The translations under genes were made by a program, and so were the position numbers. The notes under the pieces are model-generated. The model was not told the DNA's origin, made no database searches, and was given only the letters and a program-made list of their open reading frames with translations. From Eledone cirrhosa (Eukaryota), in the NCBI GenBank assembly GCA_964016885.1, contig OZ024740.1, forward strand, positions 222,890,001 through 222,954,000: a stretch of DNA of 64,000 bases. Direction: 5' to 3'. Positions 7,231 to 64,000 of the stretch are shown piece by piece (position 1 is the first letter of the stretch; each line of letters opens with the position of its first letter).

Positions 7231-7812
7231 GTTAAGTCCCTTTACGGTCTGAGTTCAAATCACGTCGAGGTTAACTTTGCCTTTCATCATTATGGGGTCG
7301 ATAAAATAAAGTACCAGTAATGCACTGGTTATTTGCTGGCTTGTGTCAAATGTAGAAACAATTATTACTATGAATAGAACTTGTCATAACATCTTTGAAA
7401 ATGACTATTTTTCTAACATTATATATATATATATATAATTGTTTCTACTTTTGGCACAAGGCCAACAAATATCCAGTACATTACTGGTACTTTATTTTGT
7501 CGACCCGTAAGGATGAAAGGCAAAGTTAGCCTCGACGGGATTTGAACTCAGACCGTAAAGGGACTTAACGTATGCGAGGTACGAAACTCAGAATATATAA
7601 TGTTAGAAAAATAGTCATTTTGGTGGATTGGCAGTATCGTTAGAAGGTCGGACGCCATGCTTTGCAGCATGGAGTTATGGGCCTTTACAATCTGAGTTCA
7701 TATCCTGCCGAGGTTAACTTTGCCTTTCATCCTTACGGGGTCAATAAAATAAAGTAACAGTAATGCACTGGGTTAATTGCTGGCCTTGTGCAAAATGGCC
7801 AGAAACAATTGT
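7207..7812. mobile_element. Cluster of SINE family 2 pieces, including an inverted pair around (TA)n
   Basis: B-box gagttcaaatc plus body aactttgcctttcatccttacggggtcgataaaataaagtacc at 7250(+), 7490-7550(-) and 7621-7812(+). Confidence 0.75.
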
Positions 7813-8209
7813 ATATATATATATATATATATATAAAAGTTTACATTTATATATACATACACATACATATACGTGTTTTGCAACTGGTCACTTTTTGGCT
7901 CAATGAAAAATTAATAAATTAAACAATCAGAGCTATATATCATAAAACATGTCTATAGTATCACAATATAAAATATATACTAATTCCTCTCCCAATTAGC
8001 ATAATTAACTATATAAAAAATCGAATAGACCAGGCTATACGAATGAGGCTTCTATGAAGGAATCTCCAACAAATAACCAAAACTAGCGCTTCGCGTCGGC
8101 CGCATTGGAATATTTATCGAATATTTCGACAGCGTAATCGCCTAGATAGAGTCGACTAAACAGAATTAGGTTTAAAATAAACTAGGAGAAAATAGAATAC
8201 ACTTAAATA

Positions 8210-8295
8210 CCTCTACCATGGTTTCGTCCGTGTTTTGAGTTATCCAATAATTATGTAATAATTATATAAACTCGAGCGCCGGATTCTTCAGGAAG
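8210..8295 (-). ncRNA. Type I hammerhead ribozyme, intact core
   Basis: cttc-CTGAAGA-atccg..cgga-c-GAAA-ccatg-GTA-gagg. Stem I cttc/gagg, stem II tccg/cgga, palindromic stem III. Confidence 0.85.
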
Positions 8296-8864
8296 CTCGC
8301 TCATATCTAGACATTAAATTTTCCAAAACGATCGCGCCAAGAATTCATTTCAAAATGGCTAAAAATCGTGACGGAGTCGCGGTCAAGTTGGAAGGGGTGT
8401 GGTAGTTGCTTACGACTAGTGGCATTTTTGCTAGAAAGCACTGCACAATACAGCCAAATTTGTGTCTCAACCTAGTGGGAGATTATTACATATAAAAGTT
8501 TACATATATATATACACATACAAATACGCGTTTTGCAACTGGTCACTTTTTGGCTCAATGAAAAATTAATAAATTAAACAATCAGAGCTATATATCATAA
8601 AACATGTCTATAGAATCACAAGATAAAATATATACTATTTCCTCTCCCAATTAGCATAATTAACTATATAAAAAATCGAATAGACCAGGCTATACGAATG
8701 AGGCTTCTATGAAAGAATCTCCAACAGATAACCAAAACTAGCGCTTCGCGTCGGCCGCATTGGAATATTTATCGAATATTTCGACAGCGTAATCGCTTAG
8801 ATACAGTCAACTAAGCAGAATTAGGTTTAAAATAAACTAGGAGAAAATAGAATACACTTAAATA

Positions 8865-8950
8865 CCTCTACCATGGTTTCGTCCGTATTTTGAGTTATCC
8901 AATAATTATGTAATAATTATATAAACTCGAGCGCCGGATTCTTCAGGAAG
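8865..8950 (-). ncRNA. Type I hammerhead ribozyme, second tandem copy
   Basis: Same motif as 8210-8295, located 655 bp away. Confidence 0.85.
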
Positions 8951-9306
8951 CTCGCTCATATCTAGACATGAAATTTTCCAAAACGATCGCGCCAAGAATT
9001 CATTTCAAAATGGCTAAAAATCGTGACGTAGTCGCGGTCAAGTTGGAAGGGGTGTGGTAGTTGCTTACGACTGGTGGCATTTTTGCTAGAAAGCACAGCA
9101 CAATACAGCCAAATTTGTGTCTCAACCTAGTGGGAGATTATTACATATAAAAGTTTACATATATATATACATACACATACATATACGTGTTTTGCAACTG
9201 GTCACTTTTTGGCTCAATGACAAATTAATAAATTAAACAATCAGAGCTATATATCATAAAACATGTCTTGTGATTTTATCTTGTGATTCTATAGACATGT
9301 TTTATG

Positions 9307-13248: not shown

Positions 13249-13440
13249 GGTGGTGGATTGGCAGTATCGGTAGCGGGTCGGACGCCATGCTTTGCAGCAA
13301 AGAGTTATGGCCCTGTATGGTCTGAGTTCAAATCCTGCCGAAGTTAACTTTGCCTTTCATCCTTACAGGGTTGATAAAATAAAGTACCAATAATACACTG
13401 TTTTAATTGCTGGCCTTGTGCCAAAAATAGAAACAATTAT
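13249..13440 (+). mobile_element. SINE family 2
   Basis: ggtggattggcagtatcg head, gagttcaaatcc B box, shared body. A further partial copy lies at 13530-13650. Confidence 0.8.
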
Positions 13441-14025
13441 ATTTTTCATATTAGTGAAAGTTTTTCTGTGTCCAATTCATGCCCTTTTCCCTTTTATATG
13501 TAGTTATCACCTACTTTCCAGCATAGTTACGATCTGAGTTCAAATCCCGCCGAAGTTAACTTTGCCTTTCATCCATACGGGGTTGATAAAATAAAGTACC
13601 AGTAATGTAGTGGGTAATTGCTGGTCTTGTGCCAAAAGCAGAAACAATGATTTCACAACCTGTAGCCATTACTCTTATCACATAATACTGCCACCTCTAA
13701 CTCTCACTCACCTGCCCATCCTATTCACATTCTTTGTCTCTTCCATTATGCTTTTTATCTCTTCCACTCTCTCCCCCATTATTTTGGTTTCCCATATCTT
13801 GTTCACCAATTATGTCCATCCAGATCTTTTAAAAGTGTTACAACTTATAGCACACCCACACCCACACCCACACATAACCCCCCCCCATACATATATATAT
13901 CCACTCAGCATCATACCATGTATCGAGTACTTCATTGATTTGTGGTCTTCCTGTTTCCAATACCACACTATCAATATATATATATATATATATATATTAT
14001 TGGCAACATGACCCTCCCAAAGTGT

Positions 14026-14659: not shown

Positions 14660-15057
14660 TAAATATATATATATATTGCCTACTTTTCCACTAGTACCAC
14701 AGTGCTGTATCCATGTGATTTACTTCTCTATCTATTACTACAATATATTACTATATCTTATTTCCATTCATCATTTGTAACAACAAATACTGCAAGACAA
14801 TGTTGCTAGGAGTGCATCACACAGAAAATTTGAGATAAAAAATATACCCCCATTAAGAATAATTGTGTTCTATAGGTACTTTTAAACCTGAGCAACACAG
14901 GGAATTCTGGTAGTGTGTGTGCGTATATATATATATTTATGTATATATATATATATCCAGGAGTGCAACATGAAGTTACTGTAGGTTCACCCAGGTGAGC
15001 ATTCAATGTTTAGATTCACATCTGTATGAAGGTGTAGAGCTAAACAGTCTAAATATA

Positions 15058-15436
15058 ATAATTGTTTCTACTTTAGGCACAAGGCCAGCAATTACCCAGT
15101 GCATTACTGGTACTTTATTTCATCGACCCCGTAAGGATGAAAGGCAAAGTCAACCTCGGCGGGATTTGAACTCAGATCGTAAAGAGTCGTAAGGTCGACT
15201 TGTTAAGCTTTTGTTACATAATGAAGGCTTAACAAATCGCCCTTGTATTATTATTGGCAGTATCGGTAGAGTGTCGGGCGCCATGCTTTGAAGCATAGAG
15301 TTATCTCCCTTTATGATCTGAGTTCAAATGCTGCCGAGGTTAAATTTGCCTTTCATCCTTACGGGGTCGATAAAATAAAGTACCAGTAATGCACTGGGAT
15401 AATTGCTGGACTGGTGCCAAAAGTAGAAACAATTAT
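15058..15436. mobile_element. Two SINE family 2 copies in opposite orientation
   Basis: 15058-15185 (-) and 15256-15436 (+) share the family 2 body. Confidence 0.75.
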
Positions 15437-15453
15437 TATATATATATATATAT

Positions 15454-31590: not shown

Positions 31591-31639
31591 TATGTATATA
31601 TATTATGTATATATATATAAATGTATATATATATTTATA

Positions 31640-31721
<82 letters not shown>

Positions 31722-31723
<2 letters not shown>

Positions 31724-33368
31724 TAAACATAAAAAAGAAGATTTACAGAGAATTAAGTCATCAAGGAAAACTTGAGCGTAACCTAACACAAGAAATAACT
31801 AAGATAACCACACCAAGAGAAAAAATAATATTTATAAACCTTATATGTCTTGAAGAAAAGTACATTGTTCAAGAATGTGCCAAGCACTTTAACAAGAATC
31901 TAAAGTGGCTCAAACAGATAAAACTAAATCAAGATACTTTAGAGAATATCGATAGATATCCCGACAAAATTAACGGTATAGATATGGCCGACATCTCATT
32001 AACAGATGAATTCAACAACAACATCACAAATATATACGGCAACACTACAGTCGACTTTGATGAATTATCGATATTACAGCTACCACCTAAATATGCCACA
32101 TATAATAAGGTAAATATGATAAAATGCTTGTCAGAAATAGAAAATTAATTTACAAAATTACGTTGGAGCCTCAAATACAAAAACAAAAGTAACAGCATAC
32201 GCACACACACACACCCATACAACACACATCCCAACAACAACATACACAAACAACGATAATAACAACACACACATCAACAATAATAACATACTCAGAAACA
32301 ACAACAACAGAGACGCAGACGCAAACAACAATAACAACACACACAACAATAATAACATACAGGTAGACAACAACAACAACACACATCAACAACAGCACAC
32401 ATCAACAACAACACACATATTCTATGTCTCTCTCCACCACCACAATCTTAACAAACACACAGACACAGAAAATAGGTAATGACAGTAAGACAGAAATAAG
32501 GGAAGGTAATAAGATTGAAAGGAGAAAGGAGACTATCGATACTGACAGAGAAAATAACTAGGACGAACACACAGACACACAGAATAGAGTAGGTAATAAC
32601 AATGAGCCAGAGGAAAGAGACAGGAGTAATAATGAGAAACATAGAAACAACCATGAGGCTATTGTTGGAAATAGAAATAGAAACAACAGAACTAACAATA
32701 ACAATAACAATAGTACACATATGGCAAGAGCTTGGAACTCTACTTTTTATAATCCTTCCGATATGTCCTTCGACCCAAGACGAGTCCACGCCACGACTTT
32801 AGCTTTTCACAAACGGACGCAATTGCCGTAGCAGGTCGAGGAACAAACAGAAGCACAATTTAGTACAGCTATATCTAAACTTAGAAATATTATAGAACAG
32901 TATAGCAAGAAGCAAAATAGAATGGATGCCCAGCAACTGGGAGAAAAATCTGCAAATGGCTTGCGTAAGCTCATGCAGCGCTCGCGTAATGGAGAGATTG
33001 CATGTTTTCCAACAGACAAGTCTGGCAGAATGTCGGTTGAGTGTCTGTCAGAACAACCAACCAGTACCATGTAAATAAACAAATAAATAAACGAATATAA
33101 ACACACACAGACACCCGGATGTAACACATGCGCAAACTAAGCACACAGCACACACACACAAATAAGATGGCGTAGGACAGAACAAAGGAGAGACACAAAA
33201 AACAAAGAAAAGAATCCCCAATCACTGAAGAGGTCACAGAATGTGTGACGAAAGAACTTTGACAATATATGAACAATCGTCTGGTTGTGGACCCAAACAA
33301 CTTACCGGAAATTTATAAATTCCTAAATTTATAATAAATTGAAGTGAAAGCAACTGGTGCGTGTGTTT
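31722..33368 (+). mobile_element. Internally deleted Penelope-like element: N-terminal ORF remnant fused to a pLTR
   Basis: Motifs LQLPPKYA..FTKLRW and GEIACFPTDKSGRM (PLE RT motif 1), with a low-complexity AAC-rich insert at 32175-32710. 33051-33368 is the reverse complement of 35545-35878. Confidence 0.75.
33221..33263 (+). ncRNA. Minimal type I hammerhead ribozyme in PLE pLTR
   Basis: tca-CTGAAGA-g-gtcaca gaatg tgtgac-GAAA-gaac-TT-tga. Confidence 0.75.
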
Positions 33369-39524: not shown

Positions 39525-41300
39525 ATATTGATACATGACATACCCTGAGATGTTAAATGTTTATGATTTAATCAAGGTAGTGATTAACCCAAGAGAAAAT
39601 TTTACTTATATCCTATTTATGAGAAAATGCGAAAACTTAATAAATTCATTAGAGAATGTGTGAGTAAGAAAAAAACATTGCATACTGTAACTGTTCTAAA
39701 AGTTTTAAAGTGTATGATACTACGATATATCTAGGAAAACGTCTCATGAATCATAACAGCATGTGATAGCCACTGGAAAAGGATTTATAAAGAGGGAAAA
39801 ATAAAAAGGGGGGGGGGTGATATATACAGAAGGAGGTTTTTTCCGAAAGTTAAACGGTTAAATTTGAAAATATTTAATTTATAATATTAGGGTGAAGACT
39901 CTAGATTTCAGGATTATTTGCTGGTTATTTATATATTATTTATATAAATTCGATAAGTGTGTTATCATTTCTAAACTTCTGAATTTTATGAGGGTAATAT
40001 TTAAAAGATTTAGCTGGCACATAAAGAATGAAATATTATACTGTTGATTATTTCCTAAATTCAAAGTTTAACAAATATACCAACATATTAGGTATGTAAA
40101 GCTTTTGAAGCACTTATTGTTATAAATATTTAAATAACTATTATGTATATAGGTATATATTAATGAGCCAGTATGTTTAAGGTAAATAATAACGACGAAC
40201 ATAAAATAAAATAAGATAATATATTGAAGGATGTTAAGGATAAATATATACATATGTATAACTGGGTGTAAATGTACTAATTATTCTTCAACCAAGCTAT
40301 CAACATATTATTAGTTACAGGGATGTATATATATAGATATATATATTAGGTATTATTAGTGTAGTATACTTTAGGTAAATGATAACAGTTACAATTTTAT
40401 CAACGTGTCACATTTAAATACATATATATATATATATTTATATATAAGAAAAGCAACAATGAGTGAATGGATAATACAGAGTTCAAAATAATGCTTATAA
40501 TAATTTGTAGTTTGGATATTTTCTCCATATTGGAATCATATATATAGAAATGTGGTAGGTATATTTAAAAATATTTAAAAATATATAAAATATAATATAT
40601 AACTACATACATATTATAATACATTATATTATAAATAAATAAGAGATCGAAAGCACAGCAAAAAATTCACATTTATATATAAGTTTGAATCCGTCTCAAA
40701 TTTTAGATTTTATAGTATTTAAAAGAAATATATGCATATACTATATTATATCATATTATAAATAATAGATAAAAAACTCATTAAAAATTCAGAGTTATAG
40801 ATAAGTTTCATAAAAATTTATGGATTGGGTATTAAACTAAAATTTAAAAGAGATCACAAATGTATTAAAAATTCACAGTTATATAAATTCCGTAAATATG
40901 TAAGGATTAGGTATTATACTAAATTATGAGCATAGATAGGAAGATAGATAGAGAAATAAGCAGATAAAGAAATGATGCTATTGATCAAAGTTAACAAATA
41001 ATGTTGTGTGGATCAATGTTTAGGCATGTTATTGAAATATTGTCATTCATTCTAGCGTTGTTTCTTCTATGGATAGTTATAAAATAAAACAATATTAAAG
41101 GCCATTAATGTTTTTTACTGTTGATTATATATTCCTGGTAACCGAGTTATTATTGGTTTGGTGTTATTGTTTCTTTTTCGTTTTATGTGAGGCTAAAAAA
41201 GTGTACGTAGCTTTATGGAGGCAACTAGAGAATAATTCACTTTTTTTGTTAATTAGGGTTATTAATAATCAACAGCATAAATTAAAGCGTAAATAAATAC

Positions 41301-41374
41301 CACGCTGATGAACCGAGGTTATTCCATTTCTGTCAACAAATTACTGGCGAAACATCTCTTTGGATTTGTACGTG
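41301..41374 (+). ncRNA. Type I hammerhead ribozyme
   Basis: cacg-CTGATGA-acc..ggc-GAAA-ca..t-GTA-cgtg. Confidence 0.8.
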
Positions 41375-41831
41375 TTTTATATAGTTATAGAGGTATTTAT
41401 TCACGCTTTAATTTATATTTTTAATTATCGTGTCTATAGTCTGCCTTTCATAGGTTATATATTCCATACACTGGTGGCTTTTTCCCTGTTTTATTGATAG
41501 CGCACTGTATATCTCTCTGTGGTGTGTTACCTTTTCAACATATTGTATTTTAAAGAGCTCAGGATTTCTTCTACTTTGAGCACATTATTTAGGGGGAATA
41601 GCGAGGCCCTATGCCACCGTTGATGTATCGTGATATTTCTGTCCTTATAACAGTCTTTCCTATCACTCTGTTTGGTTGAGCAAACTTCTCTGTGTGGTTT
41701 TGGGCTGCCCTTTCTAGCAGCTCGTCCCTCAGAGGCCACTGGTTCACTGCCCTTAAACACGCTGTGACTTCTCTCTCCCACGTGTAGCAACTTTTAAAAT
41801 TCTCTTAGTATTGTCTGAAATGTATGGCCTT

Positions 41832-41911
41832 ACACACGCTGATGAACCGAGGTTATTCCATTTCTGTCAACAAATTACTAGCGAAACATCTCTTTGGATC
41901 TGTACGTGTGT
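41832..41911 (+). ncRNA. Type I hammerhead ribozyme, second copy
   Basis: acacacg-CTGATGA...c-GAAA-catc..gatct-GTA-cgtgtgt, with a perfect 7-bp stem I. Confidence 0.8.
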
Positions 41912-42097
41912 TATATAGTTATAGAGGTATTTATTTACGCTTTAATTTATATTTTTAATTAACGTGTCTAGAGTCTGCTTTTCATAGGTTATAGATTCCA
42001 CACACTGGTGGTTTTTTCCCTGGTTTATTGATAGCGCACTGTATATCTCTCTCTGGTGTGTTACCTTTTCAACATATTATATATATATGTATATGTG

Positions 42098-42172
<75 letters not shown>

Positions 42173-42295
42173 TTATATATATATGTGTGTGTGTGTATAT
42201 ATATATATGTATATATGTTAATATGTATATGTGTACGTATGTGCGTGTGTATGTATGTATGTATGTGTGTTTGTATGTGTGTGTATGTGTGTACA

Positions 42296-42338
<43 letters not shown>

Positions 42339-42383
42339 GTGTGTATGTGTATATATATATGTATATATATATGTATATGTGTG

Positions 42384-42437
<54 letters not shown>

Positions 42438-43939: not shown

Positions 43940-46900
43940 TATATCCAAAATCTAAATCAAAATTATGTCTGTCATGCCAGAAAGGCATGCACCATATCAC
44001 CCGTAAAGTAAGCTTCAAGATTCTAATGAATAGATCCGAGCATTTTATAACAACTAGAAATTGATTAACATATAAATAAACTTATGAAACAATCACAGGG
44101 GATAATGTTTACAAGTGTGTAAGCAAACCTAGCTAGGTAGGTAACTAAATAAACTTAACTAGAACTTTTAAAAATAGATACCTTATAATATGATTAATCT
44201 TCCCTGTATATATTCCATTAAAGAAATATATTTCACCAATTAATCGAATGGTAAACGATGGAAGCCTGTAATTGGATTTTCAACAAGGAAGAAGTCCAGC
44301 GATCTGTGTTTACGCATTAAGTTCAAATCAGCAACTGACCACTAACACGTGCTGTATCTACTAAAAATACACACATCGTACCAGCTTCGTCCCAGTAGCG
44401 TGAATAGGGTTATCGACAAGTAGAAACAGCAGTCAAGTCCTTTCAACAGAGTTAGCTCTACACATACATTTAAAAACAAGATTAAAATACATGCGACAGA
44501 TAATGCAAGAGAATAGTCTAATAATCATATCAAATAGATAGTATATGCGATAGTCATATATGGAGCTAGCAAATGTGTCATTTATATATGAGTATTGTGT
44601 GGCAAGATATTACATGTAATACAAGCACTTTAAGCGGGTATGCAAGAGTATTATGGTGGTTGCAGTGCGAGGATATTTTCTGTATAGATCAATTAGTATG
44701 TGTGCAGAAAAAGAAGGTTATAGTTTTCACATCCAGAAAAAGGAAGTTATAGTTTTCACATCCATCACATATGTTACGATGTATTTGTATTGAATGTTTG
44801 TTGTAGTAAAGGAGTGTAACGTATTGAAACTCAGTATTATTTAATCCATATATATTGACTAGGTTCTTTCGGCTGCGGGGATTTACAGCGGTTTAATATC
44901 CGGATGTAGGTATGTAATTAAGGGGAGCTAATGCGTAAGGGGAGATAACTAGCTGATTCTCATAACTAAATTCATTGCTCTAACATACATTATATGGTGC
45001 CTCAATTGAGTCCCTTATATAAAAGGTTATATATTTATATTTAATTTTAAATACAGTCTACTCTCTCATAATGTATTAAAGGTTTAAATAGGAAGTTGTT
45101 TACTCATTATTATATAGTGCTATAATTGAATTTCCCACCCAGAGTGCTATATCTTTATATCAAATTAACCTTAAATACGGTCTACTCTCAAAACATATTA
45201 AAGGTTCAATTAGATTTTTGTCTACCCAACCCTTGGTAAGCTATGGAACAGCGTACAGCTGTTTGCATGATAAATTAGACACATCTCTTGAATAAACAAA
45301 TTCATCCCCCATATACAATGTTATTAATCTATCCATTTTGTTATAAATGCATATATAATTCATATATAATTCATTGTTCCATATTACATATAAGTTAGAC
45401 AAATCCCTTATGTTAATAAATTAATCCTCTATATACCCAATGTTATTAATTTATACATTAATTACAAATGCATATATAATTCATTGTTGTATCTAATATT
45501 TAAAGTTTATATAAATTGTATTATATTTCAATCACTATATAATTATAAGTAAACTAAAGTAATTATATTAAAAGGTGGTGATTATAAGGATATTTCTAGG
45601 GTATAAAGTTATAGATAGAATGATTTGTGTAGAGGAAAGGGTATATAAGAGAGTGTGGTGTAGAGGTGGGAGGCAAGACCTTGAGGTGAAGTGCTAAAAG
45701 TGGTGATGGTTCAAATCTGACATTGTTATATACTAGGTTTAAACCTTTGGAAAGAGTGTCGGTCGGAAGCGGTGTTGGCACGATGCAAACACTTACCATT
45801 TTTTATTAAGGAGGTTAAGATTCGAAAAGAGTATAGTATGGGTCTCTAGTAGACAGAGGTTACAGAATTTATTAGGTGGTTTATACGATGCAGCCCTACT
45901 TACCACTTCCCATTGAAGTGTATATGTTCTATTCCTAGTTTTCAGATAGTGTATGTAGCTAGATAGTGAAGTGGAGTTGGCTAGATTGTGTATTTTGAAA
46001 GAATCGAGGTGCGAGTTGTATCTCGTTTTGAAGCAGTTCGAAGTAGAACCTATATAGGTTTCAGAAGAGTTGTTAGTACTGACCGTGCATGAGTAAATGA
46101 TGTCCTTGATTAAGCAGTTTTTACCTAAAGGGCAGGTTCTATTAGATCTACAGTTACATTTATCTTGGATGTTATCTTGTCGGTTATTATGTTGTGTAGA
46201 AGTCTGGTTGCTAGGTATTGCATTAGGGCTATGAAGGTTGTCGTTCCTAATGTTATTGATTTCATTAGCGTTATTACTATTGTTATCAGGGTTTGCAGTT
46301 ATTATGGTGTTTTGAAAGTTTACCCCCTGCTGTGTTTTAGTTTGTTGAAAGTAAGTATTAATATTTCTTGTATTGCTACTAGCTATGTGGCATGCTATGT
46401 TAGGTGTGGTAGAGTAGGAGATGTTAATGGTATTCTTATTTATAAGACTATGGTACTTGTGGCCTGATGGGAAGTTTTTATCCAGGATTGAGAAGAAAGC
46501 CTTAAGAAGGTTGGTAGAGACGTTTAGATTGAAAGGGGGATTGAAAAATGTATTAGTTCTTCTATTTTTGTTTTTTATATCTATTGAGGTATTTCCGTTT
46601 ATAGTATTTTGGTGACTTCTCTGGTGCGAGTTACGTTTGATGCTACTCTTCGTATTAGTGTGAGTGTGGTTATTATTCTTATTACTATTTTTCCTCATGG
46701 TCATATTGTGATAAATAATGTTGTAACTATGTGTTTTTATAAGTAGGAACTCAATCCCATTATTATGGCCTGATTTAGCTAATGCCTGATTATAGTATTG
46801 TGAATTATTGCTAAATATGGTTTCGTTATAAGATAGATTAGAGATTCTATTGGATATTCCTTTAGTGATTGAGTTTAATATGGATCTAGGGTGGTTAGAC

Positions 46901-47280
46901 TTGGTATCTAAATAAATTAGTTTTTCGTTAGGTTTATGAAATTGTGTATATATTTTAGAGTCTAGGTAAATGGTAGCATCAAGGAAGTTAACATTCTTAG
47001 TGTTTTTGTCTATGGTGATACTTAAGTTATACTTTTTGAAAGTTTTATGTAATAGTTTCCTAGTTATTTCTATATTAAATTTTTTTATAGTCTATAAGGA
47101 GTAGTGCATCATCGCGGTATAAACCACCGTTGAGGTATGGTAGGTCCTTATGGATTTCATTTAGTAGATATATGCCCACCAAATCAGTGACCTGCGCCGA
47201 GTCACTAGATCCCATAGTTATGTCAAAGTTGTTATGCGTATCCTTGCGGGTCCATAACAGATCTTCAAAGGCAATAAAGT
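43940..47280 (-). mobile_element. 5'-truncated Penelope-like element (RT + C-terminal GIY-YIG + long 3' region)
   Basis: FDITMGS..GLYRDDAL, VNFLD, SNHP, FNPPF, CNCR..CPLGKNC, YIGST..FKTRYNSH and CNLCLLE. Has a frameshift near 47085 and a premature stop at 45793. The 3' end abuts (TA)n. Confidence 0.92.
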
Positions 47281-52191: not shown

Positions 52192-53508
52192 AACTCACAC
52201 ACTCATATTCAATCAAATATGCATGAAGAAATTTCATGAACAATGCAAATGTGTTTTTATGGTGACATTCTATTTGCCAATTTTTATGTTTGTGAAAGGT
52301 GGTCAATTGTCAGAATCTTTAGAGAATAAGATACATGGTTTACAGTATTTCTTCTGGCTTTTGACATATTAAATATAACTCTTACTAGATTAAATGTTAT
52401 ATTTCATCTTACTGTGGTTGATAATATGAAGTACTAATCTTGATTTAATTGACATATATATATAGGAATAGATCAACAAGATCCCAGGCCTCATTCCTTT
52501 ACCTAGTGGGCTAGAGCTCATCAAGTTGAACCAATGAAACCATGTTTCCATTGGTCTTTCCATTGCTGACAATATTTACCAGTTGCAAATGTGAAACAAA
52601 GTGTTTTGCTCAAGGCAAAATCCTGTGTGTTTTCATAGGGATGTAATATTACTTATTATTAAGTTTCTGTTAATTCTTTTCGCTATGTATTCACACACAC
52701 ACTCTCAGATACACAGCAATGTGTATGATTATGATGATGTGTGTATTTGTCTAGGTCCATAGATCCTTTAATGCCTATAAAATAAAAACACTAAACATAC
52801 ACATATATTACACTGTATATTTATGTGTGTGTGTGCGTGTGTGTATGTGTGTGTATGTGTGTGTGTGTATGTGTGTGTGGTTGATGTTAGGAAGGGCATC
52901 CAGCTGTAAAAGCCGTGGCCAAATTTACAGTCCTATTGGAGCAAGGTATAGTGTGGCCAATTCTGACCAGACTTGTCTCTCAATGTGTACAACCTGTCTC
53001 TACACATGCAAGCAAGGAAAATGGACATTAAACAATGAGGATGATGATGGTGATGATGTTATATATAGGCTATAGTGGAATATATATATATATTTATAAA
53101 GTGTTAAAATGATCAAATTTTAGTTTAGTACATTTATTAGCTGACAATTGTTTCTTCCAGAGGGAAGTCCGGATTACATCGGGGCATAAGGAATGATGAA
53201 AACGTGTAACTAGAATCCTAGTTATTTAGAACATTTAGGCTACATAGTTGTTATTAGTGTCAAAGGCATCATGTGGAGATTCAGGAGTTAAAAAGATGTT
53301 CCGCTTGAAATAACACAATTACAGGCAGCACTGGTTGGAAGTGTAATAGGTATAAGTAAAAGTAAAAAGCACAAGCAAAAGAAAGAAAAGCAAAAAAACA
53401 CAGGGAAAGAAGTTATAAGCATGGACAATAGGTGTACAATGCAGGAGTCAATACAGTCAATAATGCATGTGTGAGGAAAGAGTTATAATGCAGTTGAAAT
53501 AAACAGTA

Positions 53509-53540
<32 letters not shown>

Positions 53541-53542
<2 letters not shown>

Positions 53543-55841
53543 GGGCACAAGAATGGGCCCGAACTATGCCAACCTTTTTGTTGGCCATGTTGAGGCCCAA
53601 ATCTTTGCCCAGTACACCGGCCCCACGCCCGAACTGTACGGTCGTTACATTGACGACTGTATCGGAGCCACGACCATCACCCGAGAACAGCTCGACTCCT
53701 TTCTCTCCTTCTTCTGCTCCTTCCACCCCTCCCTCCACTTCACCACCTCTATCTCCACCAACCACGTCCACTTCTTAGACATCTCCGTCGCCTTCGAGCC
53801 CTCCCACCACTCCCTCGTCACCTCCGCCTTCTTCAAACCCACCGACTCCCACCCTTACCTCGACTTCACCTCTTCCCACCCTACCCACACTAAACTCTCC
53901 ATTCCCTACTCCCAACTTCTCAGGATCCGCCGCCTCTGTAGCCGTGATGCTGACTTCGAGTCCCAGGCCCTTTCCCTAGTCAGCCATTTCATTCGCAGAG
54001 GTTACCCCCCTCTCTCGTCTACACCGCTCTCACCCGCGCCCGTGCTATCCCCCGCTCCACCACCCTCACCCCACGCCACCGCACACCCACCCACCGTCTC
54101 CCCTTCCCCATCACCTACCACCCCTCCACCTCCCACATCTTCCCAACCCCACCACTCCCCTCCTTCAAACGCGCACGCAATCTCCGCACCCTCCTCGTCC
54201 ACAGCTCCCTACCCCCAACCCACGCGCTGTTCCCCCCCGGTTTCTTTCCCTGTTCTAGGCCCCGCTGCAACACCTGTCCCCACATCACCAACACCACCAC
54301 CTTCCAGGGTCCCAACGGCCACTCTCTCTCGGTCCGGCATGCCTTCCGCTGCACCTCCTCCAACCTAGTCTACGGACTTCGCTGCACGGAGTGCAGCCCG
54401 ACGTATGTCGGACAGACGGGACGTCGCCTGGCGGACCGAGTCACGGAGCACCTCCGGGATATTCGTCTCGGGGGCAGTTCCCCCATCGCCCGCCACTTTG
54501 GTGGCCCTGGACACTCCGCACGCCATCTCACAGTCTGTGGCCTACTCCAGTGCCACGGAACACCCGCCCATCGCCTTACGGTCGAACAACGAACTATCTT
54601 CATCTTACAGACCCACACTCCCCTCGGCCTGAACGCCCCACCCTTATTCCTTTAGCGTTCGACCGCCCCCCTCCCCCCACACTTATCCCCCACTAACACC
54701 ACTAACACACCCCTCCTTTTCACCGCCCACCCCACACTAACAATACTAACACCTCCACTCCACCCCCTCATCTGACCACCTTTCCCCAACTAACATACTA
54801 ACATCCCTTCCCTCCCCTCTTCTCCTCCTCCCCCCTCCTTATCACACGCACACACCCACCGGCACATATATACACGCGCTCACACTAAACACACACCCTA
54901 CTACCACCACTAACCCTCACCCCCACACCTCTCACCCCCACACCTCCATCCCACCACCCCGCAACTAACCTCACTAACACCCCCTAACCCCAAGCACACG
55001 AACACACGCACCCACTTACACCACCCACCCCACACGCAACTAACATAACTAACACCCCCAACCACACGCACACGTACCCACACACCCTCGTACACCACCA
55101 ACTCTACACACCCTACCACCACTACCCCCACTCACAGCTGCATTCAACCCCTCCCCCCTCCCGTATACTTACACCCACTAACACCTCTTCATCAAAATAC
55201 ACACACACCAGTACACCACACTCCCTCCATAGAACCACACACACCCTTCTCTCCCCACTCCGCCCACACCCTCGCTCCACACTCACTCATCCCACTAACA
55301 CCCCTACTAATACACACACACACACAGACACCCTCCTCACTCCAACTTTCACACCTACCCATCCTCGCCCCCTACCATTCCACTGACTGCTGCTGTGCCC
55401 TCTGGCCACCTCGCAGCACCAACAGACCACAGCACTCCCACTGCTGACCACTTCCTGTTGCACGCGCACCCCACATCTCTCCTCTTCCGACCACCACTTC
55501 ATGGATTACCCACACGCAGAATTTGACTTACAAACAATCTACTGAACATCCTTGGAACTTACCAACTTTTCAACCATCCTCTATATCGTAATCACCTATA
55601 TAACTCAACCGCACACACACCCCAAAAAAAAAATGTTTTCTCCACACGCCACCCACACCCACAACACGCTTAAACCCCACACACACGTGCTTCCCACCAC
55701 ATATTTACACCCTCAGCCTCCTGATTCCTCTCCCCCCACCCCCTATCCACACACGCACAGACACTCCGACCCACAAAAACACCCCCCACACACACCCCTT
55801 CCTGAACATGCAACCCCGTTTTTCTCCCAACCCTTACTTTG

Positions 55842-56965: not shown

Positions 56966-57015
56966 AGCTATAAAAAAAAAAAAAAGAAAACACTAGCCGC
57001 AAAACAAATCAGAAG

Positions 57016-60000
57016 ATGGCGACAAGACTACGGATGAACGAAGCGATCAGGGCATTCACCGGGGAAGGCGATGTTGTCGCTTGGCTGCGGAAGGTTCGGC
57101 TGGTCGCAGGCTTGCAGAAGATAGGAGACGTGGCCGGCCTCATGGCATTGTACCTCGAGGGCGACGCGCTGGTACTCTTCCTTGAGTTGGACGACCACAG
57201 CCAAAGAGATGTGCAGAAGATTGAGAGGCGTCTGATGGATGCATTCGCCGAGGGACCGTTGGCGGCTTTTGCTAAGCTGGCGAGAATCAGGTGGAATGGT
57301 GAGCGCGTCGACATTTTCGCCACGGAAATAAGGCGGTTGGCTATGTTGGCCGGTTACCAGGCGGAATGCGAACGCACGGTGCGGTTGGCGTTCATCAATG
57401 GATTTCCGGACGACATAGCGGTGAAACTGCAGCAAGTCCCGGGGTATAAAGAGATGGAAATGCGTTCACTGGTGGAACAAACCCGGATCATAGCGGAAGG
57501 TGCCAAAAAGCGTGTTGCGGTGATAGCGACTACGGAGGCTCAGGACACCTGGCAGCGAAATAGTCAAAGGGAGGCAACCTCGGCACGCGGCGTCCGTGCG
57601 AATTTCGGGGGCGCTGTTTTAGGTGCCAGGGCCCGCATATGTCTAGAGACTGTAGAGAGTCGAAGCCGGAGATAATTTGCTACCGGTGTAAGCGACCAGG
57701 CCACATCACTACTAACTGCGACCAGGGAAACGATCTAAGGGGAACAACTGCGCCGGTAGTTGCCCCTTACGAGTAGCGGCGCTGCCCGTCGTGGAAGTCT
57801 TCGTGAGGGGGAAGCCACAGCGAGCCCTCGTGGATACGGGCTGTACGACGACACTGGTGACCGCGGGGGTGGCGCAGAGGTGGGGAGGGTAGAGCAGCGT
57901 AAGGGCAGTCGACGGCAGGAAAATTAAATGCCGAGGTCGCAGCGAGATGGAAATAGCGGTACGGGGAAGGACGATAAGGCTTTCCGCCATCGTGGTAGAC
58001 AGTGTGGTGGATGGGATCGGCGTGGTTATGGGCATGGACGCGATTGGCCGTCTAGGGGCGTCACGGTGAACAATGTCGGTGTGTTGTTTGGCGCCGCTGC
58101 ATCGGTATGCGCTGTGAGTGCACGTCATGAGAACCAGAAGGCCCACGAGGAGGAATACCCCGCTTACACTGTACAGGACAAAGACTTCAAGGCCGTGTTT
58201 GATGGGCAGCGATGGGTTGTTGAGTGGTACTGGAAGGGAGAACCACCAACACTGAAAACCAAAGTGGGCTGCTATCAACACACATTGAAGGGAAACGCTA
58301 GGAGCGAGTTCGAGCGAGAAGTAGAGAGATGGATCGAAGGGGGCATACTGCTTCCCTGGAAGCAGGAGGTGAAGTGCGGAGTATTGCCGTTGATGGCGGT
58401 GGTGCAACCCACGAAGAGCAAGGTGAGGCCGGTGCTGGACTATCGGGAGCTGAACGAGCACGTGTCATGCCACACGGGTGGCGAGGTCACGGATGTCTGT
58501 GGGGAAACCCTGCGTGAGTGGAGACGCATGACGGGGGATTCAGCGATCGTGGATCTAAAGTCGGCTTACTTGCAGTGGCATATAGATGAGAGGCTCTGGC
58601 GGTATCAGCTGGTCAGGTATAAGGGCCGGACATATTTTTTTTTTGCCTGACCAGGCTCGGTTTCGGGCTGAGCTCCGCACCGAAGATCATGGCGGCGGTC
58701 CTCAAGACCGCTCTGGGGAGGGCCGACAAGATAAAGAGGGCTACTAACTCCTATATTGACGACATCCTAATGGACGAGTCGATGGTGTCGAAGACGGAGG
58801 TCACGAGCCATTTGCGGAGGTATGGACTGACTGCGAAGCCATCAGAAGCATTGGAGGGAGGAGCCGCGCTGGGACTTAGGCTACGGCGAGATAAGACGGG
58901 CTTTTGGTGTTCCAGAGGGGAAACGAAGTTCCGGAACTGGGCCCAAGTATGAATAGGCGGGAGCTTTTCTCGGTGTGTGGAAAGCTGGTGGGTCACTACC
59001 CGATCGCTGGGTGGCTCCGGACGGCATGCAGCTATGTCAAGAGACGAGCGGGAGGATGACTTGGAGTGACAGAGTGGGAGAGAGAACGGTGGCCATGATG
59101 CAGGAGATCGTGGGGAGGGTGAAGGCCGACGACCCAGTGAGGGGACGCTGGTACGTTCCCAAATCACGGAGCGGGTCCGTATGGTGCGATGCCAGTAGCA
59201 TAGGGCTGGGTGTCACGTTGGAGATAGGAGGTGTTGAGGTCGAGGATGCATCTGGCTTAGAAAGAAGGACGACTGCAGCCACATCAATGTGGCCGAGCTG
59301 GACGCGGTGTTGAGAGGGGTGAACCTCGCCCTGCGGTGGGGGCTGCGCACCATCGAGATACGCACCGACTCGGCTACTGTACTCGGATGGGTAGGATCAG
59401 TGCTCACCAGTGAGAAGAGAGTGCGAACGAGAGGCGCGGCGGAGATGCTGATAAAGCGCCGCATGGGAACGTTAGGAGAGCTGGCCACCGAGTTCGACCT
59501 GAAGCTGAGCGTAGTGTTCGTGCCCTCGGAGAAAAATAGGGCGGACATCTTAACTAGAGTGAAGAAAGCCTGGATGGAAGTGCCGGAGGAGGTAGAGGAT
59601 GAGATAGCTGCTGTGTGTCGGCTGACCGAGTTAGACCTGAAGGGGTTGCACGACATTCACCACATGGGGGTGGATAGGAGCCTGTTCCTAGCCAGGAGAA
59701 TCGACTCGGACGTTAGCAGACACAGTGTTCGGGGGGTGGTTAGAGGCTGCGTCCGATGTCAGTCCATTGATCCCGCCCCGGGTGTACACGAAACGGGAAG
59801 CCTCCCGGTGGATCGCGACTGGAAGCGATTAGCGGTGGGTGTGACGCACTACCGGCAGGGAACGTACCTCTCGATGGTCGACTGTGGACCAGGTCGAATG
59901 GCGATATGGAGGGAGATGAAGACTGGAACGGCCGAGGAAATCGTGCGGACGTTGAGAGAGGTGTTCTTGGAGCGGGGCCCTGTGGATGAACTGCTGATGG

Positions 60001-60539
60001 ACAACAGCGCAGCGTTCCGCTCGGAGGCACTGAGGGAGATGCTCGATGGATGGAAGGTGGACCGTTTCTTCAGAGCGGCGCACAGGCAGAGCGGGAATGG
60101 AATCGTGGAGCGACACCACCGGACGAACAAGGCAATGGCGGAGCGGGGCCATATCTCACCAATGGAGGCAGTGTTCTGGTACAATATGTCCCCTCGGGTT
60201 GGACAGGTCGAGGAATCGGTGCCACATAGAGCAGTATTCAAATACGAGTGGCGGCACCCGTGCACGCCACCACAACGGCCAGTGGGGAGAGAGAGTGCAT
60301 TCGTGCAGGTGGGCGAAGAAGTCTGGGTTAAGCCCCCAGATGCACGTTGCACATCTCAATGGGGAAGGGGAACGGTGACGGCAGTAAATTCAAAGAACAA
60401 TGTGTCCGTAGACGGGGTACAACGTCATGTCCTGGATGTAAGAAGAATCACTGTGTCGACGGACTCCGAGGAAGAGGAAACCCAGAGCTCTGCCCCAATA
60501 CTACGAAGATCGCAACGAAGTCGTAGACCACCGACCTAG
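57016..60539 (+). pseudogene. gag-pol with frameshifts and stops
   Basis: Gag with two CCHC knuckles (CFRCQGPHMSRDC, CYRCKRPGHITTNC), PR ALVDTGC, RT VDLKSAY/YIDD, RH WCDAS/AELDAV/TDS/NRAD, and IN HHCC + LMDN + NGIVER. The first catalytic D appears as G (LAVGVTHY). Confidence 0.92.

Positions 60540-61714: not shown

Positions 61715-64000
<2,286 letters not shown>

What the first reader, a model, noticed from the sequence alone, without database searches (positions are those of the whole stretch)
41276..42076. LTR-retrozyme-like layout: two HHR-headed direct repeats 534 bp apart
Both repeats begin almost exactly at HHR stem I and carry intact CUGAUGA/GAAA/GUA cores, so double cleavage would release a 534-nt RNA. 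It is unrelated in sequence to the 655-bp family, showing independent families with the same design.
Basis: partly seen in the sequence, partly recalled or inferred. Interest (0 to 1): 0.75.

Follow-up and report, generated by a model that had tools for sequence, protein, structure and literature searches.

The report
Penelope-type hammerhead retrozyme, not LTR
This is one worn copy of a 540-base non-coding repeat, present over a thousand times in this animal genome, that carries a predicted self-cutting RNA motif, ends just before the same kind of two predicted small hairpins as the genome's Hydra-type Penelope jumping genes, and likely borrows their enzymes to spread; its two repeats are not LTRs.

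Summary
The repeats (248 nt, 95%, 534 apart) and both hammerhead (HHR) cores are real. The LTR reading fails. The locus is 1.46 head-to-tail copies of a ~542-nt unit, with a 25-nt inverted 5' piece, ending in (TA)n. The HHR is type I, and there is no TSD, PBS or PPT. The family has at least 1,345 HHR copies. Of 160 arms, 144 end at one of two fixed sites 88 nt apart. In mirror-image insertions with both ends at fixed sites, 45 of 47 use one of each. Each site precedes a GCTC...TTGAGC-closed hairpin. A coding Hydra-clade Penelope family in this genome shows the same arrangement, and the unrelated 655-bp family carries similar hairpins. So it is a non-autonomous Penelope-type (non-LTR) retrozyme, likely copied in trans by Hydra enzymes priming both target strands. 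Both local ribozymes are damaged, so release of a 534-nt RNA from this copy is doubtful. Cleavage, expression and circles are untested. The scan found the same design, including the Hydra link and twin hairpins, on other DNA of this genome; I tested those leads here.

The parts
41277..41301 (-). 25-nt inverted 5' piece (unit positions 92-116), sharing one base with the forward unit; short 5' inversion of Penelope type
   Evidence: exact reverse complement of 41926-41950; BLAST hit
41301..41834 (+). one full unit, 534 nt (commonest family length 542; this copy lacks about 8 nt near 41789)
41301..41374 (+). type I hammerhead 1: stem I cut to 4 bp by 5' truncation, core 41305-41311, 37-nt helix/loop II region, GAAA 41349-41352, helix III, predicted cut after 41370
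41371..41904 (+). predicted 534-nt monomer between the two cut sites (untested)
   Evidence: circular fold z -1.4 against 40 shuffles
41543..41548 (+). fixed end site A (unit about 243-253), ending in an AT-like microhomology to the target
   Evidence: 82 of 160 arms end here
41557..41581 (+). predicted hairpin A, closed by GCTC...TTGAGC, 8 nt beyond site A
   Evidence: closing motif intact in 47 of 57 units
41629..41636 (+). fixed end site B (unit about 336), 88 nt beyond site A; A-to-B is the Penelope 'tail'
   Evidence: 62 of 160 arms end here
41640..41681 (+). predicted hairpin B, 3 nt beyond site B; its 5' GCTC is mutated in this copy
   Evidence: closing motif intact in 47 of 57 units
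41832..41911 (+). type I hammerhead 2: 7-bp stem I, core 41839-41845, helix II broken by G>A at 41880, predicted cut after 41904
41835..42078 (+). 3' partial unit (pseudo-LTR) ending at site A
42074..42434 (.). (TA)n microsatellite, the insertion target
   Evidence: 137 of 144 A/B ends are followed by (TA)3 within 20 nt
45793..47091 (-). not part of the insertion: RT-thumb/GIY-YIG fragment of a Hydra-clade Penelope family whose other copies carry the same twin-hairpin ends (candidate mobiliser type)

Best explanation
This is a decayed 1.46-unit insertion of a ~542-nt non-coding repeat with a predicted type I hammerhead, and it was likely copied into a (TA)n tract in trans by the reverse transcriptase-endonuclease of a Hydra-clade Penelope-like element. 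Shown: tandem units, variable 5' ends, frequent mirror-image arms, two fixed 3' ends 88 nt apart in (TA)n, one of each in two-armed insertions, and a GCTC...TTGAGC motif 3-8 nt beyond each end that is shared with a coding Hydra family. Inferred: the enzyme, probably a dimer, nicks both strands of the self-complementary (TA)n, binds the two hairpins and primes one strand at site A and the other at site B on the same source RNA. The cDNAs usually run through the ribozyme site and stop at variable points, giving single arms, two-armed insertions and partial tandems whose overlaps look like LTRs. Inferred, about even odds: source loci are transcribed as multimers, cut by the hammerheads and closed into unit circles that serve as templates for more-than-unit copies. 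This copy is probably no longer a good source.
For: Family size: 1,345 exact matches to a 14-nt HHR pattern against 6 for the control. Ends: A 82, B 62, other 16 of 160 arms in 103 insertions; two-armed insertions AB 45, AA 2, BB 0, plus 14 with an end elsewhere; binomial P 3e-12 for 45 of 47. Units of one insertion share rare variants: 15 of 19 insertions on one strand and 8 of 11 across opposite arms, against 48 of 600 random pairs. Hairpins: the coding Hydra family has both, and 21 of its 23 terminating copies end at the matching two sites; 3 of 3 two-armed loci use one of each. The 655-bp family has similar hairpins, one directly beyond its inverted-arm end. HHR: core departures 14 of 1000 cells against 70 of 1547 in loop II, while the free N7 position differs in 49 of 91; helices I and III are 95% paired. 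Papers: partial tandems, inverted 5' copy, one-sided tail and (TA)n bias of PLEs including Hydra (PMC8557442); two internal RT start sites and cleavage of both strands (PMC11167929).
Against: No coding element sharing sequence with the unit was found: no hit better than E 0.02 in 70 Hydra loci from two families, so the partner is named by signal only. The shared motif is short, and 27 of 2000 shuffled units give two such motifs somewhere; the case rests on their position. HHR covariation is not significant (63 of 500 shuffles reach it), helix II is only 71% paired and lacks G10.1-C11.1. The two units of this copy share no rare variant. Some young arrays have identical inner units but a different terminal unit, which fits later local duplication rather than rolling-circle copying. 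No A>G excess. All loci are best-scoring hits, not a random sample.
Confidence: 0.83

Rival explanations
1. Same non-autonomous Penelope-type element, but copied from uncut linear read-through transcripts; the hammerhead plays no part in copying, no circle is used, and long arrays arise by later local duplication.
For: In the Anolis PLE, HHR mutants insert normally and unprocessed RNA is the main substrate in vitro (PMC11167929). Most insertions hold a whole HHR (42 of 58), which uncut RNA explains. Identical inner units with a different terminal unit occur in two arrays. 8 of 9 Xenopus dimers did not cleave in vitro (preprint).
Against: The core is conserved while N7 varies freely, which points to selection on cleavage at some step. 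Linear copying can only shorten arrays, yet runs of 2.4-3.5 units occur at several loci. Old, diverged arrays still share rare variants. This rival differs from the best explanation only in the template step.
Confidence: 0.4
2. An LTR retrozyme as in plants: two LTRs around an internal region, mobilised by Gypsy machinery.
For: Two HHR-headed direct repeats 534 apart; a Gypsy-like element lies in the window (integrase hit).
Against: Type I, not type III HHR; no TG...CA ends, PBS, PPT or TSD (one TATTA/ATTA match uses a left edge 12 nt outside the true inversion and an AT tract). Arrays have variable unit number, 5' truncation, inversions and (TA)n targets.
Confidence: 0.02
3. A fragment (3' UTR plus pseudo-LTR) of an unidentified coding PLE, or a DNA-level satellite, rather than an independent RNA unit.
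For: Only the best 40 candidates are scored per search, so a rare coding parent could be missed; retrozymes are proposed to derive from pLTRs.
Against: 28 full units join head to tail with no ORF between HHRs; their longest stop-free frames (61-115 codons) do not exceed shuffles. None of the 30 HHR loci read showed a PLE ORF joined upstream, judged on the part of the output that was not cut. Dispersed insertions with fixed ends are not a satellite pattern.
Confidence: 0.1

Closest known systems
Metazoan non-LTR retrozymes (Cervera and de la Pena 2020, PMC7229834; Li, Clavereau and Pollet 2026, bioRxiv 10.64898/2026.07.22.740005)
   Same: Non-coding tandem units with one type I HHR each, GC about 40%, no LTR/PBS/PPT, dispersed monomers to multimers, co-occurrence with PLEs.
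   Different: Unit 542 nt (150-450 typical; up to 972 in the preprint). The HHR has a 37-nt helix II region and a 7-bp helix III, not the short helix III of canonical animal HHRs. No large TSDs. The parts read do not describe fixed twin ends, one-of-each pairing or end hairpins. Circles are shown there and untested here.
Hydra-clade Penelope-like elements (Craig et al. 2021, PMC8557442; Hydra-1_Obim in supplement S1)
   Same: (TA)n targets, HHR, partial tandems, inverted 5' copy, tail at one end; in this genome also the twin GCTC...TTGAGC hairpins beyond the two ends.
   Different: No ORF; no alignable sequence with the two Hydra families checked; tail 88 nt (about 163 in the coding family here; 30-40 nt in the paper).
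Anolis Poseidon PLE PAc (Frangieh et al. 2024, PMC11167929)
   Same: Internal RT initiation at two sites downstream of the HHR, matching genomic ends; AT-rich targets; both strands cut and extended.
   Different: There the sites are adjacent in one AC-rich stem-loop and no strand difference in start site was seen; here each site has its own downstream hairpin and the two arms use different sites.
Plant LTR retrozymes (features as summarised; the 2016 paper itself seen only as a listing)
   Same: Two HHR-bearing direct repeats whose double cleavage would free a unit RNA.
   Different: Type III HHR, true LTRs, PBS, PPT, 4-bp TSD and Gypsy partner; none is met here.

Membership tests
LTR retrozyme | type III HHR in the LTRs | tested here: not met
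   stem I is the open helix, so type I
LTR retrozyme | PBS, PPT, TG...CA ends | tested here: not met
   read by eye; no tRNA set was compared
LTR retrozyme | 4-bp TSD | tested here: not met
   (two left edges by script; the true edge 41276 by eye)
LTR retrozyme | fixed LTR-internal-LTR layout | tested here: not met
   0 to 6 same-strand HHRs per insertion, variable 5' ends
Metazoan non-LTR retrozyme | head-to-tail non-coding units, each with a type I HHR | tested here: met
   core intact in 76 of 91 HHRs
Metazoan non-LTR retrozyme | dispersed, high copy number, GC under 50% | tested here: met
   1,345 exact matches; GC 0.39-0.40
Metazoan non-LTR retrozyme | canonical HHR geometry (G10.1-C11.1, 4-bp helix II, short helix III) | tested here: not met
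   A.C or A-U at the base of helix II, long loop II, long helix III; closer to PLE-type variants with an unpaired base after A9 (PMC4209133). The cited papers describe this as typical, not required.
Metazoan non-LTR retrozyme | self-cleavage | not testable with these tools
   folding only
Metazoan non-LTR retrozyme | expression as unit-length linear and circular RNA | not testable with these tools
   no RNA holder listed
PLE-mobilised element | 5' truncation, partial tandem, inverted 5' copy, one-sided tail, (TA)n target | tested here: met
   61 of 103 insertions two-armed; 144 of 160 arm ends at A or B; 137 of 144 into (TA)n
PLE-mobilised element | 3' sequence shared with an autonomous partner | tested here: inconclusive
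   no alignable sequence in two Hydra families; only the hairpin motif and its position are shared
Hydra-clade PLE (autonomous) | ORF with RT and C-terminal GIY-YIG | tested here: not met
   no ORF in the unit; the motifs are met by the neighbouring family: CxCx5C, CxxC, CxH, DKT by eye

The most novel reading that the evidence does not exclude
Hydra-clade Penelope enzymes read a portable twin-hairpin code, prime the two strands of a cut (TA)n tract from two different hairpin-marked sites on one RNA, and run round hammerhead-made RNA circles. Sequence-unrelated retrozymes need only this code and a ribozyme to be mobilised, which would explain both the one-sided PLE tail and how animal retrozyme circles enter genomes.
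Probability: 0.35. Interest if true: 0.78.

Novelty: new variant of a known kind. Interest (0 to 1): 0.52.

Why it matters
Which enzyme mobilises animal retrozymes, and why Penelope insertions carry a tail at one end only, are stated as open in the papers read. This family names a candidate enzyme clade, two start sites and two short RNA signals, so both questions become direct in vitro tests. The locus itself is an ordinary decayed copy, and the LTR-like look is a known trap of partial tandems.

Tried and rejected
Rfam: no HHR model matched. RNA evidence: no RNA holder listed. Three unclassified contig runs of one sample hold the family; depth is higher over the part ending at site A, but contigs show no ends or levels, and a circle junction would read the same as the genomic tandem junction. 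5' ends at the cut site: 8 of 160 arms start at unit 66-76 and four independent arms start at 69-72 by eye, but clusters as large lie at 80, 110 and 504; inconclusive. ADAR-type scars (lead e1-8803865): A>G 21 of 4825 against T>C 81 of 9262 on the sense strand, no excess. Coding potential: a frame of about 105-120 codons seen in some copies is within shuffle range. Partner by sequence: two Hydra families share no alignable sequence; a diverged tail-like 85-nt piece proved to be a fragment carried within other repeats. Whole-monomer folding z -1.4 and -2.4, not diagnostic. Look-up of earlier findings by sequence gave nothing. Paper searches for an octopus or cephalopod retrozyme, Penelope twin priming, or a Hydra hairpin signal listed no paper that describes them by title or abstract start; the library lacks most subscription papers, and the preprint's supplements could not be seen.

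Full report
Observation. The two repeats are 41301-41548 and 41835-42082, 94.8% identical and 534 apart. Each begins with a type I hammerhead: stem I, CUGAUGA, a 37-nt helix/loop II region, GAAA, helix III, GUA, stem I. The cuts would fall after 41370 and 41904. Rfam has no matching model. The 655-bp family at 7828-9268 shares only chance words with it. The 3' end runs into (TA)n at 42074-42434.

The repeats are not LTRs. The window lies in a 3.0-Gb animal genome (G000). A search with the locus gave 2,743 first-look candidates, 40 scored; a 14-nt HHR pattern has 1,345 exact matches against 6 for the reversed control. Relatives are head-to-tail runs of a 525-544-nt unit, most often 542, with up to 3.5 units in one run and 6 same-strand HHRs at one compound locus. 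This locus is one unit plus 0.46 unit, so the overlap only looks like an LTR. The defining marks of LTR retrozymes (type III HHR, PBS, PPT, 4-bp TSD) are absent. With queries from the 3' part only, 42 of 58 insertions hold a whole HHR and 6 of 58 hold two or more on one strand; two of those six are the queries' own loci.

Insertion anatomy. I pooled 130 loci into 106 insertions and dropped 3 segmental duplicates, leaving 103. All are top-scoring hits, not a random sample. Of 160 arms of 40 nt or more, 82 end at site A (unit 240-256), 62 at site B (329-340) and 16 elsewhere; 137 of the 144 A/B ends run into (TA)n. The 5' ends are scattered over the whole unit. 61 insertions have two opposed arms: 45 AB, 2 AA, 0 BB and 14 with at least one end elsewhere, this locus among them. 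With independent choice about half would be AB, so 45 of 47 has P 3e-12. In 39 of the 45 AB cases the B arm is long enough to run past site A, so the arms overlap on the template. This is the Penelope pattern of partial tandem, inverted 5' copy and a tail at one end (PMC8557442, passages and section 11). It also fits the two internal RT start sites and double-strand cleavage shown for the Anolis PLE (PMC11167929, parts 1-2 of 4).

Common template. In an alignment of unit positions 1-240 (92 of 95 rows after dropping 3 duplicates), units of one insertion share at least one rare variant in 15 of 19 insertions on the same strand and 8 of 11 across opposite arms, against 48 of 600 random pairs. 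So both arms usually come from one source. This does not prove a circle: two young arrays have near-identical inner units and a different terminal unit, which fits later duplication, and the two units of this locus share no rare variant.

Start signals and partner. Earlier scan notes pointed to twin hairpins and Hydra-clade PLEs; I had found the A/B rule before reading them and tested the hairpin and Hydra leads afterwards. A GCTC...TTGAGC-closed hairpin begins 8 nt beyond site A and another 3 nt beyond site B; each closing motif is intact in 47 of 57 units. The PLE fragment at window 45793-47091 belongs to a large family whose ORF shows the Hydra motifs CxCx5C, CxxC, CxH and DKT by eye; Pfam gives no hit. 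That family has the same two hairpins; 16 of its copies end before the first, 5 before the second, 2 elsewhere and 4 read on into the ORF, and 3 of 3 two-armed loci use one of each. The 655-bp family has one such hairpin directly beyond its inverted-arm end and a second, with a swapped closing pair, about 100 nt further on. No alignable sequence links the unit to either of two Hydra families (70 loci), and two such motifs arise somewhere in 27 of 2000 shuffled units. So the clade is inferred from motif and position, and the exact partner is unknown.

The ribozyme. In 91 of 97 HHRs aligned (5 duplicates and 1 truncated copy left out), the core is intact in 76, core cells depart 14 of 1000 against 70 of 1547 in loop II, and N7, the free core position, differs in 49 of 91. 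Part of this conservation may come from the queries. Helices I and III are 95% paired and helix II 71%; one helix II pair changes G-C to A-U in 6 rows; overall covariation is not significant (63 of 500). The geometry is unusual: A.C or A-U at the base of helix II, a long loop II and a 7-bp helix III, against the short palindromic helix III of most animal HHRs (PMC4209133, parts 1-2 of 4). This locus is worn: 4-5% from the family majority, stem I of HHR1 cut to 4 bp, 2 nt missing from helix III, helix II of HHR2 broken at 41880, hairpin B mutated. Its active folds cost 9.4 and 10.3 kcal/mol, against 0.1-3.4 for three hand-picked family copies. Double cleavage here would also need read-through from upstream, since nothing of the unit precedes HHR1.

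Mechanism. Shown: structure, ends, targets, shared variants, shared motif. Inferred: a Hydra-type RT-endonuclease nicks (TA)n, binds the hairpins and primes one strand at A and the other at B on RNA from one source; cDNAs usually pass the ribozyme site and stop at variable points. Less sure (about even): the template is a hammerhead-cut, ligated circle, as proposed for animal retrozymes (PMC7229834, passages and Discussion) and PLEs, and not an uncut multimer, which is the main substrate for the Anolis enzyme in vitro. No RNA data were available.

Verdict. It works like, and by structure belongs with, the metazoan non-LTR retrozymes, which a 2026 preprint (parts 1-3 of 5 read) derives from PLEs; cleavage and circles remain untested. 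It is not an LTR retrozyme. The added value is the one-of-each end rule and the hairpin signal shared with a coding Hydra family, which the parts of papers read do not describe and five aimed searches did not list. This scan has noted the same design in other families of this genome; e1-10311171 (539-nt unit) may be this family, which I could not check. Interest 0.52; new variant of a known kind.

Noticed in passing
window 7828-9268 (-): 655-bp family: HHRs at 8291 and 8946 with a 59-nt helix II region, A.C at the base of helix II, (TA)n end, short inverted 5' arm and two GCTC/TCTC...TTGAG hairpins. An older 77% relative lies at 297-1109.
   Followed up: partly
L196:3619-3680 and L200:3601-3660 (reverse strand of the loci), family of window 45793-47091: The coding Hydra family (unit about 4.2 kb, long 3' UTR) carries an HHR-like motif whose first core reads CCGAAGA instead of CUGANGA in all seven copies printed; activity unknown.
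   Followed up: partly
window 62384-63088 (+): Second Hydra-type endonuclease fragment, from a different large family with a pyrimidine-rich 3' UTR.
   Followed up: partly
window 14334 (-), 35698 (-): Further short hammerhead motifs; 14334 is a well-formed minimal type I HHR with palindromic helix III.
   Followed up: no
window 53475-54655 (+), 31621-32148 (+): Other Penelope-like RT/GIY-YIG and N-terminal fragments, judged by eye.
   Followed up: no
window 56974-60539 (+): Broken LTR-retrotransposon-like frames (RNase H-like and integrase Pfam hits below cut-off for the integrase).
   Followed up: no
L061-L090, e.g. L009:3345-3440: An 85-nt, 76%-identical version of the A-to-B tail sits between microsatellites and has spread to hundreds of sites (904 first-look candidates) as a passenger within other repeats.
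   Followed up: partly
L153 (G000:C6:98398299): Two-armed insertion that is a perfect palindrome centred on the GTAC at the predicted cut site, one arm ending at A and the other at B.
   Followed up: partly
L139, L141, L142, L138, L140 region sets: Several insertions share the same 5' flank and a start at unit 504-505, so some copies were re-amplified as part of larger repeats; such shared junctions inflate 5'-end clusters.
   Followed up: no
window 15050-15453: 404-nt near-palindrome that matches 7420-7830 and 13257-13652 on both strands; MITE-like or fold-back repeat.
   Followed up: no
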